Shown in pieces: positions 48,348 to 64,000 of a DNA stretch of 64,000 bases (position 1 is its first letter; the number at the start of each line of letters is the position of its first letter). The notes below the pieces were generated by a model. The model was not told where the DNA came from and did not search any database. It worked only from the letters and a program-made list of their open reading frames with translations. The translations under genes were made by a program, and so were the position numbers. The stretch lies in the NCBI GenBank assembly GCA_009914755.4, contig CP086569.2:3904001-3968000 (forward strand), given 5' to 3'. Origin of the DNA: the human T2T-CHM13v2.0 reference genome, Homo sapiens.

Positions 48348-48778
48348 TGTCAGGCCTCTGAGCCCAAGCCAAGCCATCGCATCCCCTGTGACTTGCACAT
48401 ATACATCCAGATGGCCTGAAGTAACTGAAGATCCACAAAAGAAGTAAAAATAGCCTTAACTGATGACATTCCACCATTGTGATTTGTTTCTGCCCCACCC
48501 TAACTGATCAATGCACTTTGTAATCTCCCTCACCCTTAAGAAGGTTCTTTGTAATTCTCCCCACCCTTGGGAATGTACTTTGTGAGATCCACCCTTACCC
48601 GTAAAACATTGCTCTTAACTTTATCGCCTATCCCAAAACCTATAAGAACTAATGATAATCCACCACCCTTTGCTGACTCTCTTTTCGGACTCAGCCCGCC
48701 TGCACCCAGGTGAAATAAACAGCCATGGTGCTCACACAAAGCCTGTTTGGTGGTCTCTTCACACGGACGCGCATGAAA
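48348..48778 (+). mobile_element. Solo LTR7 (HERV-H LTR). There is no HERV-H primer binding site or internal sequence downstream.
   Basis: The sequence 'tgtcaggcctctgagcccaagccaagccatcgcatcccctgtgacttgcacatatacatccagatggcctgaagtaactgaagatccacaaaagaagtaaaaatagccttaactgatgacattccaccattgtgatttgtttctgccccaccctaactgatcaatgcactttgtaatctccctcacccttaagaaggttctttgtaattctccccacccttgggaatgtactttgtgagatccacc...ctttgctgactctcttttcggactcagcccgcctgcacccaggtgaaataaacagccatggtgctcacacaaagcctgtttggtggtctcttcacacggacgcgcatgaaa' matches my memory of the LTR7 consensus start 'TGTCAGGCCTCTGAGCCCAAGC' and end '...GGTGGTCTCTTCACACGGACGCGCATGAAA'. Confidence 0.75.
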
Positions 48779-49039
48779 CTCACTGAATAAAATGTTTTGA
48801 GAAAAATACTTAGTTTTCATGCCTATATAACTATCTTTTGCTTTGCCACAGTATCATACACAAAAAGGTACTCCATGAGTGCTTATTAAATGTATAAAAG
48901 TCAGAATGAAGTAATGTACATTTGTGGATATTAATTATCTTCGCTGCTTTTTACCTTGATTATAATTTTTATTCTAAGGCTTCATACTTTATGTGTTTTT
49001 AATTGCATTAAAAATTGAGCAAAGGACATTAACAGACAC

Positions 49040-50330
49040 ATTTCAAAAGAAAACATACAAACGGCCAACAAGCATATGAAAAAATGCTCAACATCACTAA
49101 TTATTAGAGAAATGCTAATCAAAATCAAAATGAGATACCATCTCACATCACCCAGCATGGCTATTATTAAAAAGTCAAAAAATAGTAGATGCTGGTGAGG
49201 TTGCAGAGAAAAAGGAATGCTTACACACTGCTGGTAGGAATGTAAATTGGTATAGTCATTTAGAAAAGCAGTTTGGCCATTTTTCAAAAAACTTAAAACA
49301 TAATTAACATTCAACCCAGTATTTCCATTATTAGGTATACCCAAAGAAATATAAATTCTTCCAACATAAAGACACATGCATGCATGTGTTCATCACAGCA
49401 CTATTTACAATAGCAAAGACAGGGAATCAACCTATATGCCCATCAGTGGGAGACTGGATAAAGAAAATGTGGTTTATATATACCATGGAATACTATGCAG
49501 CCATTAAAAAGAATGAGAACATGTGTTTTGCAGCAACACGGATGGAGCTGGAGGCCATTATCCTAAGCAAACTAACATAGGAACAGAAAAGTAAATACTG
49601 CATTTTCTCACTTATAAGTAGGAGCTAAACATTGAGTATGTTAGGGACAAACTGCCCTAAGAAAGCTTCTTGGTGCTGCCCACCCCTCCACCTAACGCTC
49701 TGCAACTCTTCTCCTTGCCGCCCACCCTTCCCCCAAGCTTCTTTACATTTCTCAGCCCTTAAGCGGTGAAACCAGCAGACTTCACTTATCAGACCTTGCT
49801 GCGATAAGCAAACCCCAATACAAACCATTCCTACAGCACAGGGGGAGGTCGTGGGAAGCATAAACAAACTTTACCTACACCTCCTTGTAAGTTCCTGTTC
49901 TTCATCTAGCTGCTACCATAAACGTCACAAGGTGATATGTGACAAAATTAACCAGCAAACAACCCCGGGATGCGGCCATACCAAAGAACTCCCTCAAACG
50001 ACCCTCCCCAGTGTAAACCCCTCATTCTGTAAGCTTGGGGCTTCTTCCTCTCTGACTGTTAAGGGGGCAGCCAGCAGGTTAATAAAACTTGCTTGCCTGA
50101 CTTCGGGTCTATTTTTAGTTTCTCTCAGCTAACCTTACAGAGGCATATGGACACAAAGAAAGGAAAAACAGACATTGGGGCCTACTTGAGGGTGGAGGGT
50201 AATAGGAGGGTGAGGATTGAAAAACTACCTATTGGGTACTAGCTTATTACCTGGGTAATGAAATAATCTGTACACCAGACCTCTGTGACACAAAATGTAC
50301 CTATATAACAAACCAAAATAAAATTAAATA
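49040..50330 (+). mobile_element. L1 3' end (ORF2 C-terminus plus 3'UTR and tail) in sense orientation. It is interrupted at 49641-50145 by a ~500-bp LTR-like insert and resumes at 50146-50330.
   Basis: Translation gives '[172 protein letters not shown]', matching the L1 ORF2 C-terminus '[31 protein letters not shown]...HIYTMEYYAAIKKDEFMSFVGTWMKLEAIILSKLTQEQKTKHRMFSLI'. The resumed tail 'acacaaagaaaggaaaaacagacattggggcctacttgagggtggagggtaataggagggtgaggattgaaaaactacctattgggtactagcttattacctgggtaatgaaataatctgtacaccagacctctgtgacacaaaatgtacctatataacaaaccaaaa' is an L1 3' tail. Confidence 0.8.
49641..50145 (+). mobile_element. Unclassified LTR-like insert, possibly an ERV1-class solo LTR, within the L1 3' end. 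It has a polyadenylation signal 'aataaaac' at ~50078 and a possible 4-bp TSD 'TATG'.
   Basis: L1 3'-end sequence is continuous on both sides ('...aacattgagTATG|ttaggg ... cagaggca|TATGgacacaaagaaagg'). The insert is GC-richer and carries 'ggttaataaaacttgcttgcctgacttcgggtct', an R/U5-like motif. Confidence 0.45.
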
Positions 50331-50699
50331 AGTGTAATAAATAAGTGAAATAAAAGTTAAATAAGTACAAGTTAAAACAATAAAGAAAATCAAGGACTTA
50401 GTAGAAAAGAAAATTTCCATTTAGATGTGCTTTTTGAGTGACAAATAGATACCTCTGTCACAAACCTGGAGTTAAGGGCAGATAGGAAAGAAAGAGAAAA
50501 ACATAAAGATAAGTTTCTTTATTTTATCTCAAGAGTAATGGATCTGGAAATACCAAATATTATATTTTTCAATGTGACTTTATAAGCAATTTCTAAAACT
50601 TAAAAAAGAATCCCCTCCTCTATTCAAGATCCAGCTTGGGTAGTATCTACAGCTGAGTTTCTGCAAATGTAGTCCCTGGATCCCTGGAGAAGCTAAGGA

Positions 50700-62292: not shown

Positions 62293-62731
62293 CTCAGGCA
62301 TCTGAGCCCAAGATAAGCCATCATATCCCCTGTGACCTGCATATATACATCCCGATGGCCTGAAGCAACTGAAGAATCACAAAAGAAGTGAAAATAGTCA
62401 GTCCCTGCCTTAACTGATGACACTCCACCATTGTGATTTGTTCCTGCCCCACCCTAACTGATCAATTAACCTTGTGACATTCCTTCTCCTAGACAATGAG
62501 TCTCAGAACCTCCTCACTGAACACCTTGTAACCCCTGCCTCTGCCTGCAAGAAAATAACCCCCTTTAACTATAATTTTCCACTACCTACCCAAATCCTAT
62601 AAAACTGCCCCACGCCTATCTCCCTTTGCTGACTCCTTTTTTGGACTCAGTCCGCCTTCACCCAGGTGATTAAAAAGCTTTATTGCTCACACAGAGCCTG
62701 TTTGGTGGTCTCTTCGCATGGATGCACATGA
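62293..62731 (+). mobile_element. Solo LTR7-family (HERV-H LTR) element, a subtype differing from the copy at 48348 (LTR7B/C/Y-like).
   Basis: 'tctcaggcatctgagcccaagataagccatcatatcccctgtgacctgcatatatacatcccgatggcctgaagcaactgaagaatcacaaaagaagtgaaaatag...ctaactgatcaat...tctccctttgctgactccttttttggactcagtccgccttcacccaggtga...gctcacacagagcctgtttggtggtctcttcgcatggatgcacatga'. No HERV-H internal sequence follows. Confidence 0.7.
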
Positions 62732-63666
62732 CATTTCTGTTAAGGAATTTTGCTTTAGTAGAAAGCAAATTCTGGTAGCTGGAAAAGCGTGGCATTAAAT
62801 GGGGGTAAATATTATTTTTTATGATTGAAAATAGAACATGTTTGAGTGTTAATACAAATAACCTGACAGAAAATGAAAATGTATGTGATGCAGAATGGAA
62901 AGGAGGAAACTGTGGGAGTGATGACCTTAAATAAGAAAGAGTGGTTGGGACTAAGTGAGCATGCAACAGTTGTTGGCATTTGCTGTCCACATGCACAATT
63001 CATCCACAGTAGAAGTAGGATGACAGAGTGAATTAGTTCAGATGCAGTTAATCTGATATTTGTGGTGAGATTTGGGGATATTTCCTCTGATGATTTTTTT
63101 TTGTTTTCACCGCGTATTATAAACCAAGGACATTAGCTGAGAGTGAAGAGGAAGAGGAATTTTTTCAGAGAATGTGTGAAATACTTGTTTAAAGTGTAGA
63201 AGAGTGAGTAGATTAGGAAAACAGTATAATTACTAAGAAGTCTTAAGAACCCAATTGGTTTTATGGTTATGAATTTAAAATGGATCTGTAAGCGTGTTTT
63301 TGTTTCTTTTTCTTCAGATAAGTTTGAATTCACGAGTTCAGGCAGATAGATTTAACCAGACTTGTGGTTTTGTGAAGTGAGTTAAACAAAATGAAAGAAG
63401 GGCAAAGAAGCTAAGTGTACTCAAAGAAGTGATTATTGTAACTGACCATTAAATTTACCCTAGGAAGAAGGAAAGTGAGAACAAGAGATGGGGAGAAACA
63501 GTGAAAATTTCCTAGAAGCAACAGATTGTAAATCTTGGTGGAGTAGTATAATTATTGAAACTGGAATATTAAGATGAGTGGGCTAGAAAAAGTAGATTTA
63601 ATAATCAGAGACTGGGATGTATAAAGTCAAGATTATGGAGGCATTACATGTGCTGATAATGGTAAG

Positions 63667-64000
63667 TGTCAGGTCTCTGAGCCCAAGCTAAGCCATCATA
63701 TCCCCTGTGACCTGCACGTATACATCCAGATGGCCTAAAGTAACTGAAGATCCACAAAAGAAGTGAAAATAGCCTTAACTGATGACATTCCACAATTGCG
63801 ATGTGTTTCTGCCCCATCCTAACTGATCAACGTACTTTGTAATCTCCCTGACCCTTAAGAAGGTTCTTTTTAATCTCCCCCACCCTTAAGAAGGTTCTTT
63901 GTAATTCTCCCCACCCTTGAGAATGTACTTTGTGAGATCCACCCTCTGCCTGCAAAACATTGCTCCTAACTCCACGGACTATCCCAAATCCTGTAAGAAC
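63667..64000 (+). mobile_element. LTR7 (HERV-H LTR) copy, truncated by the end of the window. It is of the same subtype as the copy at 48348.
   Basis: 'tgtcaggtctctgagcccaagctaagccatcatatcccctgtgacctgcacgtatacatccagatggcctaaagtaactgaagatccacaaaagaagtgaaaatagccttaactgatgacattccacaattgcgatgtgtttctgccccatcctaactgatcaacgtactttgtaatctccctgacccttaagaaggttctttttaatctcccccacccttaagaaggttctttgtaattctccccacccttgagaatgtactttgtgagatccaccc'. Confidence 0.75.

What the first reader, a model, noticed from the sequence alone, without database searches (positions are those of the whole stretch)
48348..64000. Cluster of three HERV-H-type LTR7 solo LTRs within ~16 kb, of at least two subtypes
The LTR7-like elements at 48348-48778, 62293-62731 and 63667-64000 (cut by the window edge) all lie in the same orientation, and none is followed by a HERV-H PBS or internal sequence. 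The middle copy has a distinct central region, lacking the 'cccttaagaaggttctttgtaattctcc' repeats, so these are independent insertions or different subfamilies rather than one duplication. LTR7-family LTRs are known from the literature to act as primate-specific promoters and enhancers in pluripotent cells, so a local cluster is a candidate source of lineage-specific regulatory or lncRNA activity. In addition, a ~120-bp segment upstream of copy 2 (61301-61440) is ~80% similar to the segment immediately upstream of copy 3 (63481-63610), which hints at a partial local duplication or a shared older repeat.
Basis: partly seen in the sequence, partly recalled or inferred. Interest (0 to 1): 0.5.

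Follow-up and report, generated by a model that had tools for sequence, protein, structure and literature searches.

The report
Three ordinary HERV-H LTR copies
Three leftovers of the primate endogenous retrovirus HERV-H (two LTR7B and one LTR7C-like long terminal repeat) lie within 16 kb as separate old insertions; they are well-known repeat types, and none is the subtype that drives transcription in human stem cells.

Summary
The three elements are real and all lie on the + strand. They match published HERV-H LTR consensus sequences (Carter et al. 2022, PMC8912925, Supp. file 7). Copy 1 (48348-48778) and copy 3 (63667-64000, cut by the window end) are LTR7B, 95% identical to that consensus. 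Copy 2 (62292-62733) is LTR7C-like, about 88-90% identical.

Copies 1 and 2 are solo LTRs. Their flanks are not HERV-H, no tRNA-His primer-binding site occurs anywhere in the window, and both have 5-bp flanking repeats (TTTCT/TTTCT perfect; CTCTC/CTCAC 4 of 5). Copy 3 cannot be called solo, because the window ends inside it.

The copies are independent insertions, not a local duplication. They belong to different subfamilies. The two LTR7B copies carry 14 and 12 private changes against 3 shared ones. The flanks are unrelated apart from one stretch of about 150 bp (80% over aligned bases), which looks like an older shared repeat.

All three lack the 8-bp SOX2/3 insertion that defines the stem-cell-active LTR7up, so the pluripotency argument does not transfer. 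RepeatMasker would annotate all of this routinely. The only mildly unusual point is the density of copies.

The parts
48348..48778 (+). Copy 1: complete solo LTR, subfamily LTR7B (431 bp). It has one 31-bp repeat unit fewer than the 7b consensus, and 7Y/7u-type bases at both ends.
   Evidence: Best semi-global match is LTR7b: 411 matches, 20 mismatches, 95.4%. blastn gives 611 bits to LTR7b vs 437 to LTR7y. Of its 21 differences from 7b, 9 equal the 7y base, clustered at alignment columns 23-46 and 505-558.
48343..48347 (.). Left flanking repeat of copy 1 (CTCTC). Its partner CTCAC is at 48779-48783; 4 of 5 bases match.
   Evidence: Read directly from the sequence.
48515..48583 (+). 31-bp tandem repeat block in U3 of copy 1 (2.2 units).
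   Evidence: Tandem Repeats Finder.
48639..48647 (+). TATA-like box CCTATAAGA of copy 1. The polyadenylation signal AATAAA is at 48714-48719.
   Evidence: Pattern positions. Functional roles are assigned from general LTR architecture, which is an inference.
62292..62733 (+). Copy 2: complete solo LTR, LTR7C-like (442 bp). It is the older copy, with half of its consensus CpG sites mutated.
   Evidence: Best match is LTR7c: score 578, 89.5%. It has the 7c-specific blocks GACAATGAGTCTCA and TTTAACT.TAATTTTCCACTACC. Substitutions are 11.7% overall and 8.8% at non-CpG sites. It lacks two insertions of the 7c consensus and has the ATTAAAAAGCTTTATT variant of 7o/7d1.
62287..62291 (.). Target-site duplication of copy 2: TTTCT, repeated exactly at 62734-62738.
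   Evidence: Read directly from the sequence. After removing the LTR and one TTTCT, the flanks read as one continuous older sequence (that comparison uses a consensus written from memory).
62596..62604 (+). TATA box CCTATAAAA of copy 2. A variant polyadenylation signal ATTAAA is at 62669-62674.
   Evidence: Pattern positions.
63667..64000 (+). Copy 3: the 5' 334 bp of an LTR7B, cut by the window end. It may be a solo LTR or the 5' LTR of a provirus; this is undetermined.
   Evidence: Gapless match to LTR7b consensus positions 1-334: 316 matches, 17 mismatches, 94.9%. blastn gives 523 bits. The 5' flank is GTAAG. The TATA-like box reads CCTGTAAGA (63990-63998), an A>G change relative to the consensus.
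63835..63933 (+). 31-bp tandem repeat block in U3 of copy 3 (3.2 units).
   Evidence: Tandem Repeats Finder.
61311..61462 (+). Segment A of the flank similarity. It lies 830 bp upstream of copy 2.
   Evidence: It is one of only two copies in the window.
63481..63612 (+). Segment B of the flank similarity. It lies 54 bp upstream of copy 3.
61476..62291 (-). Older, strongly decayed repeat into which copy 2 inserted. It is probably a LINE-2 ORF2 region read in antisense. It continues after the insertion from 62734.
   Evidence: This is only a lead. An L2 3' consensus written from memory hits the minus strand at 61476-61671 (E 3e-12). A second recalled consensus is collinear with 61542-62291 and runs across the reconstructed empty site. 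Pfam finds nothing there, and no repeat library was available.

Best explanation
The window holds three separate germline insertions of the gammaretrovirus-like endogenous retrovirus HERV-H, from two different waves. An LTR7C-type virus integrated first, at 62292, into an older decayed repeat. LTR7B-type viruses integrated later, at 48348 and 63667. At copies 1 and 2, the provirus later collapsed by recombination between its two LTRs. That left a single LTR flanked by the original 5-bp target-site duplication.

Each LTR has the usual U3-R-U5 layout, with a TATA-like box and a polyadenylation signal. It could therefore act as a weak promoter or a polyadenylation site. [quoted passage not shown] It would not be expected in primed pluripotent cells. 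The short similarity upstream of copies 2 and 3 is an older repeat that was present before the LTRs arrived.

Shown: the identity, boundaries, subfamily and independence of the copies, and the solo status of copies 1 and 2. Inferred: the order of events, the recombination step, and any promoter activity.
For: The family and subfamily calls come from alignment to the 11 consensus sequences of PMC8912925 Supp. file 7. Copy 1 is 95.4% and copy 3 94.9% identical to LTR7b; copy 2 is 89.5% identical to LTR7c.

Solo status of copies 1 and 2:
- a perfect TTTCT/TTTCT repeat flanks copy 2, and CTCTC/CTCAC (4 of 5) flanks copy 1;
- no match to the tRNA-His primer-binding site occurs in the whole window, even with 3 mismatches;
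- no further LTR7-like sequence occurs on either strand;
- the only retroviral pol remnant between the copies is on the opposite strand, in the order RNaseH, integrase, dUTPase, which is the ERV-L order and not that of HERV-H.

Independence: copies 1 and 3 have 14 and 12 private differences from the 7b consensus and only 3 shared ones. They also differ by one 31-bp unit. Copy 2 is only 78-80% identical to the others. The flanks share just one 150-bp segment, at different distances from the LTRs (830 vs 54 bp).

Relative age: non-CpG divergence is 8.8% for copy 2 against 4.6% for copies 1 and 3. This matches the published order, with 7c mostly shared with macaque and 7b mostly 10-20 My old.

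Expected activity by subfamily: PMC8912925 sections 10 and 11. Solo-LTR formation with retained junctions: PMC6298018.
Against: - The 3' part of copy 3 and whatever follows it lie outside the window, so one of the three 'solo' calls is open.
- The flanking repeat of copy 1 has one mismatch.
- Copy 2 scores almost as well against LTR7u2 by blastn (470 vs 488 bits). It also lacks two insertions of the 7c consensus, so 'LTR7C-like' is the safest label. The 7c group itself is described as heterogeneous.
- No RepeatMasker/Dfam library, orthologous primate sequence or expression data could be consulted.
- The 5-bp duplication length for HERV-H is my own recollection, not a tool result.
Confidence: 0.88

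Rival explanations
1. Copy 3 is not a solo LTR but the 5' LTR of a full-length or partly deleted LTR7B-HERVH provirus that continues beyond the window.
For: The window ends at consensus position 334 of 464, so nothing downstream can be read. The paper gives 113 proviral and 524 solo 7b loci, which makes a prior of about 18% for a 7b LTR with a non-HERV 5' flank.
Against: The only argument against is that prior: solo LTRs are about 4.6 times more common for this subfamily. Attempts to extend the locus found nothing.
Confidence: 0.18
2. The cluster arose by local segmental or tandem duplication of one LTR together with its flank.
For: All three copies share one orientation. A segment of about 150 bp is shared upstream of copies 2 and 3.
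Against: Copies 2 and 3 belong to different subfamilies with different central blocks. The shared segment lies 830 bp from one LTR and 54 bp from the other, and nothing else in the flanks matches. Copy 2 has its own perfect target-site duplication. Copies 1 and 3 have mostly private substitutions and unrelated flanks.
Confidence: 0.02
3. The three LTRs form a working lineage-specific regulatory or lncRNA-promoting module. [quoted passage not shown]
For: Copies 1 and 2 keep a TATA-like box and a polyadenylation signal. [quoted passage not shown] LTR7C drives UCA1 in trophoblast (abstract of PMC10962953). The density of copies is higher than uniform placement predicts.
Against: All three lack the 8-bp SOX2/3 insertion required for LTR7up promoter activity in iPSC. 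Solo LTRs of 7b and 7c are numerous, and the subfamily-level signal comes from a subset of loci. Copy 3 has an A>G change in its TATA-like box. Copy 2 has lost half of its consensus CpG sites. No expression or chromatin data could be examined.
Confidence: 0.1
4. Segments A and B (61311-61462 and 63481-63612) come from an old local duplication, not from two fragments of one interspersed repeat family.
For: They are the only two copies in the 64-kb window and lie only about 2.2 kb apart in the same orientation.
Against: The similarity stops after about 150 bp on both sides. Divergence of about 20%, with several indels, is typical of ancient mammalian-wide repeats. The DNA next to segment A resembles an antisense LINE-2, though that rests on a consensus written from memory.
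Confidence: 0.25

Closest known systems
LTR7B (Type II RTVL-H/HERV-H LTR)
   Same: Copies 1 and 3 match the consensus at 95% over their full visible length. This includes the 31-bp U3 tandem repeats and, in copy 1, the 7B-specific CTATAAGAACTAATGATAATCC block; copy 3 is cut inside that block.
   Different: Copy 1 has one repeat unit fewer. It carries 7Y/7u-type bases at the first 46 and last 55 alignment columns. Copy 3 is truncated by the window.
LTR7C
   Same: Copy 2 shares the 7C-specific central blocks and gives the best overall score to this consensus.
   Different: It lacks the 18-bp and 13-bp insertions of the published 7c consensus. It has the ATTAAAAAGCTTTATT R-region variant seen in 7o, 7d1 and 7u1. 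It differs from the consensus at about 12% of aligned bases.
LTR7Y (Type Ia, described as a 7B x LTR7 recombinant)
   Same: Copy 1 shares the 7Y bases at its 5' end (4 diagnostic sites) and at its 3' end, including the terminal GCGCATGAAA.
   Different: In the middle 400 columns copy 1 follows 7B at 39 of 41 diagnostic sites. Overall it is 95.4% identical to 7b against 92.5% to 7y, and the 7y alignment needs many more gaps.
LTR7up1/up2 (the ESC/iPSC-active HERV-H promoters)
   Same: Same LTR family, with conserved ends and R/U5 region.
   Different: All three copies lack the 8-bp AAAAGAAG insertion that carries the SOX2/3 motif, and the surrounding 7up block 2b. Deleting that motif abolishes promoter activity in iPSC.

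Membership tests
HERV-H LTR (LTR7 group) | Full-length sequence similarity to a published LTR7-group consensus | tested here: met
   95.4%, 89.5% and 94.9% to the best consensus. blastn gives 611, 488 and 523 bits.
HERV-H LTR (LTR7 group) | Retroviral LTR termini (TG...CA) and short target-site duplication | tested here: met
   Copy 1 reads TGTCAGG...CATGAAA, the ending of the 7y consensus, with flanks CTCTC/CTCAC. Copy 2 reads TCTCAGG...CATGACA with a perfect TTTCT/TTTCT. Copy 3 starts TGTCAGG and its 3' end lies outside the window.
LTR7B | 31-bp tandem repeats (CCCTTAAGAAGGTTCTTTGTAAT...) in U3, plus the TATAAGAACTAATGATAATCC block | tested here: met
   Copy 1 has 2.2 units and the full block. 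Copy 3 has 3.2 units, with the block cut by the window end.
LTR7C | 7C-specific central block (TCCTGGACAATGAGTCTCA...) and TTTAACTGTAATTTTCCACTACC | tested here: met
   copy 2 has TCCTAGACAATGAGTCTCAGAA and TTTAACTATAATTTTCCACTACC.
LTR7C | The two insertions present in the published 7c consensus (alignment columns 77-94 and 138-150) | tested here: not met
   both are absent from copy 2. The paper states that 7c is heterogeneous and that two consensus sequences were needed, so I file copy 2 as 'LTR7C-like'.
LTR7up (pluripotent-cell promoter) | 8-bp AAAAGAAG insertion with the SOX2/3 motif in block 2b | tested here: not met
   One search shows gaps at columns 184-191 in all three copies. One search finds 0 matches to CCACCACAAAAGAAGTG; all three read CCAC(C/A)ATTG(T/C)GAT instead.
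Solo LTR | LTR flanked on both sides by non-proviral DNA with matching target-site duplication, and no PBS or internal region | tested here: met
   Met for copies 1 and 2. For copy 3 the feature cannot be tested, because the window ends inside the LTR.
Recent tandem or segmental duplication | Collinear similarity of the copies together with their flanks | tested here: not met
   the only flank similarity is one 150-bp segment, at different offsets from the LTRs.
LINE-2 (host of the copy 2 insertion) | Match to the L2 consensus or a reverse-transcriptase domain | tested here: inconclusive
   Pfam finds nothing on the minus-strand frames. A consensus written from memory matches, but that is a lead and not a library result.

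The most novel reading that the evidence does not exclude
The density of copies may not be chance. Under this reading, the old LTR7C insertion, or the chromatin around it, was open in the germline or early embryo and attracted later HERV-H (LTR7B) integrations within 1 kb and 14 kb. This would resemble the way gammaretroviral integrases favour active promoters and enhancers. The locus would then be a small HERV-H integration hotspot, and possibly an 8-cell/morula-stage transcription unit.
Probability: 0.08. Interest if true: 0.4.

Novelty: already known. Interest (0 to 1): 0.1.

Why it matters
It matters little beyond correct annotation. The main lesson is that 'LTR7' is not one thing. The stem-cell promoter activity known from the literature belongs to LTR7up, whereas these copies are LTR7B and LTR7C-like and lack the required motif. 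Treating them as candidate pluripotency elements would be a mis-transfer of function.

The one slightly unusual point is the density of copies. Three HERV-H loci lie within 15.3 kb, and about 0.2 such triplets are expected genome-wide if the roughly 2,500 loci were placed uniformly (counts from PMC8912925). That estimate was made after seeing the cluster and ignores regional insertion and retention biases.

Tried and rejected
1. Extending the locus past 64000 to settle copy 3. Exact-pattern scans of metagenome and genome contigs with the unique 5' junction found 0 matches. Exact-protein look-ups of two ORFs that span LTR junctions were not on record.

2. Finding the hg38 coordinates by searching the alignment supplements of PMC8912925 for private variants of the three copies. 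The held parts of the files do not include them.

3. Rfam scan of the whole window: no family reached its threshold.

4. Naming the older repeat around copy 2. Pfam on six-frame translations found nothing, and a literature search for consensus k-mers gave 0 papers. Only a consensus recalled from memory matched, so the LINE-2 call stays a lead.

5. HERV-H internal sequence between the copies: rejected. The only pol remnant is on the minus strand and has the ERV-L domain order, and no tRNA-His PBS is present.

6. Copy 1 as LTR7Y: rejected as the main call. 42 of 51 scorable diagnostic sites follow 7b, although both ends are 7y-like.

7. A literature figure for the HERV-H target-site duplication length: not found in the papers read. 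The 5-bp expectation is my own recollection.
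Full report
**What is there.** The window is AT-rich (35% G+C), repeat-rich primate DNA. I ran blastn with each of the three reported elements against the whole window. This returned those three places only, all on the + strand. The same holds when 11 published HERV-H LTR consensus sequences are used as queries. 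A MAFFT alignment shows well-conserved 5' thirds in all three copies and conserved 3' ends in copies 1 and 2. It also shows a central region that differs between copy 2 and the other two.

**Which LTRs they are.** No repeat library was available. However, Supplementary file 7 of Carter et al. 2022 (eLife, PMC8912925) holds aligned consensus sequences for LTR7b, 7c, 7y, 7bc, 7o, 7d1/2, 7u1/2 and 7up1/2. I aligned each copy against these by semi-global alignment:

| Copy | Best consensus | Matches / mismatches | Identity | Notes |
|---|---|---|---|---|
| 1 (48348-48778) | LTR7b | 411 / 20 | 95.4% | One 31-33-bp gap; next best is 7y at 92.5% with many gaps |
| 3 (63667-64000) | LTR7b, positions 1-334 | 316 / 17 | 94.9% | No gap |
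| 2 (62292-62733) | LTR7c | 391 / 46 | 89.5% | Followed by 7u2, 7bc and 7o |

I then added the copies to the published alignment, which shows the reasons for these calls:
- Copies 1 and 3 carry the 31-bp U3 tandem repeats of 7B. Tandem Repeats Finder gives 2.2 and 3.2 units. They also carry the 7B-specific TATAAGAACTAATGATAATCC block.
- Copy 2 has the 7C-specific blocks TCCTAGACAATGAGTCTCA and TTTAACTATAATTTTCCACTACC.
- Copy 2 lacks two insertions of the 7c consensus. It also has the ATTAAAAAGCTTTATT variant otherwise seen in 7o, 7d1 and 7u1.

The paper itself calls 7c heterogeneous and needed two consensus sequences for it. By blastn, 7u2 also scores close behind for copy 2 (470 vs 488 bits). 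I therefore label copy 2 'LTR7C-like'.

**A detail of copy 1.** Of its 21 differences from the 7b consensus, 9 equal the 7y/7u base. They sit at the two ends (alignment columns 23-46 and 505-558). The middle follows 7b at 39 of 41 diagnostic sites. The paper reports extensive block exchange between 7b and 7y, and says 22% of former 7b annotations move to 7y on re-masking. Such a mosaic is therefore within the known variation.

**Solo or proviral.**
- Copy 2 starts with a mutated TCT (for TGT) at 62292 and ends ...CATGACA at 62733. It is flanked by a perfect TTTCT at 62287-62291 and 62734-62738.
- Copy 1 is flanked by CTCTC and CTCAC, a 4 of 5 match.
- The expected tRNA-His primer-binding site, TGGTGCCGTGACTCGGAT, does not occur anywhere in the window, even with three mismatches. 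I wrote that sequence from the known tRNA-His 3' end, which is my own knowledge.
- The only retroviral coding remnant between the copies is on the minus strand. It has the order RNase H, integrase, dUTPase (Pfam). That is the ERV-L arrangement, not that of HERV-H; this assignment is also from my own knowledge.

Copies 1 and 2 are therefore solo LTRs. A solo LTR forms by recombination between the two LTRs of a provirus, and the junctions are retained (PMC6298018).

Copy 3 is different. The window ends at consensus position 334 of 464, so its 3' end and what follows cannot be seen. From the published counts (113 proviral and 524 solo 7b loci), the prior that it heads a provirus is about 18%. Four attempts to fetch the neighbouring sequence failed.

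**Independent insertions or duplication.**
- Copies 1 and 3 are 91.4% identical over shared columns. They have 14 and 12 private differences from the consensus and only 3 shared ones. They also differ by one repeat unit.
- Copy 2 is 78-80% identical to either of the others.
- A sensitive self-comparison of 60001-64000 finds only the LTR-LTR match and one further segment, 61311-61462 vs 63481-63612.
- That segment is significant: score 58 against a shuffle maximum of 23.5, and 79.5% identity over aligned bases (69% with gaps).
- It lies 830 bp upstream of copy 2 but 54 bp upstream of copy 3. It does not extend further, and it has no other copy in the window.

The DNA that copy 2 interrupts looks like an old LINE-2 read in antisense. 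An L2 ORF2 3' consensus that I wrote from memory hits the minus strand at 61476-61671 (E 3e-12). A second recalled consensus is collinear with 61542-62291 and continues straight across the junction once the LTR and one TTTCT are removed. This is a lead from memory, not a library result, and Pfam sees nothing there. Segments A and B are most simply two pieces of one old repeat family, but an old local duplication is not excluded.

**Ages.** Divergence from the consensus at non-CpG sites is 4.6% for copies 1 and 3 and 8.8% for copy 2. In copy 2, 15 of 30 consensus CpG positions are changed. I applied a neutral rate of about 2.2e-9 per site per year, which is my own figure and rough. This gives about 20 My for the 7B copies and about 40 My for copy 2. 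The estimate for copy 2 is probably too high, because its consensus is heterogeneous. The order agrees with the cross-species analysis of the paper, where 7c is mostly shared with macaque and 7b is mostly 10-20 My old.

**Function.** Copies 1 and 2 keep a TATA-like box (48639 and 62596) and a polyadenylation signal (AATAAA at 48714; ATTAAA at 62669). Copy 3 has CCTGTAAGA in place of CCTATAAGA. So they could act as weak promoters or polyadenylation sites, as any LTR can.

In PMC8912925 only 7up is robustly transcribed in ESC and iPSC. This depends on an 8-bp insertion with a SOX2/3 motif, and deleting it abolishes reporter activity. All three copies lack that insertion (columns 184-191). [quoted passage not shown] One LTR7C is known to drive UCA1 in trophoblast (abstract of PMC10962953). 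Whether these particular copies do anything cannot be told from sequence alone.

**How unusual the cluster is.** The paper counts 2,497 HERV-H loci. Placed uniformly over 3.1 Gb, they would give about 0.19 triplets spanning 15.3 kb or less, and about 2.8 pairs within 1.4 kb, genome-wide. The density is thus above a naive expectation. However, the calculation was made after seeing the cluster and ignores regional insertion and retention bias. I list a hotspot reading as the most novel possibility and give it a low probability.

**Verdict.** This is a correct sighting of known repeats with a partly over-extended interpretation. The content is ordinary and already known, so interest is low.

Noticed in passing
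window 51780-57202, minus strand: A decayed retroviral internal region lies between LTR copies 1 and 2. Pfam hits are RT_RNaseH_2 (about 53550-53819), the integrase core rve (about 52335-52560) and dUTPase (about 51816-52064). With dUTPase 3' of integrase this is the ERV-L (class III) layout, unrelated to HERV-H and on the opposite strand.
   Followed up: partly
window 50843-51364, minus strand: A well-preserved L1 ORF1 fragment: Tnp_22_dsRBD with E 8e-35 and Transposase_22 with E 3e-25.
   Followed up: partly
window about 57500-60050, plus strand: L1 ORF2 remnants. RVT_1 gives E 7e-07 at about 59650-60030. By eye there are endonuclease-like stretches near 57650-57917. An A18 run sits at 59378-59395. 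A further L1 ORF2 3' piece lies at 49019-49577 just after copy 1; this was seen by eye and had no Pfam hit.
   Followed up: partly
window 48348-48393 and 48723-48778: Copy 1 is LTR7B in its body but carries LTR7Y/7u-type bases at both ends (9 of its 21 differences from the 7b consensus). This fits the 7B/7Y block exchange described in PMC8912925.
   Followed up: yes
window 48060-48240, plus strand: By eye this stretch resembles a MIR/L2-tail type SINE (…tgtaaaatgggaagaatagcagtatttcctcataaaattgtgatcagaaggaaataaa…) just upstream of copy 1. It was not tested with any tool.
   Followed up: no
window 48348-64000: Three HERV-H loci lie within 15.3 kb, against about 0.19 such triplets expected genome-wide under uniform placement of 2,497 loci. 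Copies 2 and 3 are only 933 bp apart, with about 2.8 such pairs expected. This is an after-the-fact estimate with a naive null model.
   Followed up: partly
window 1-64000: Rfam gathering-threshold scan of the whole window found no RNA family on either strand.
   Followed up: yes
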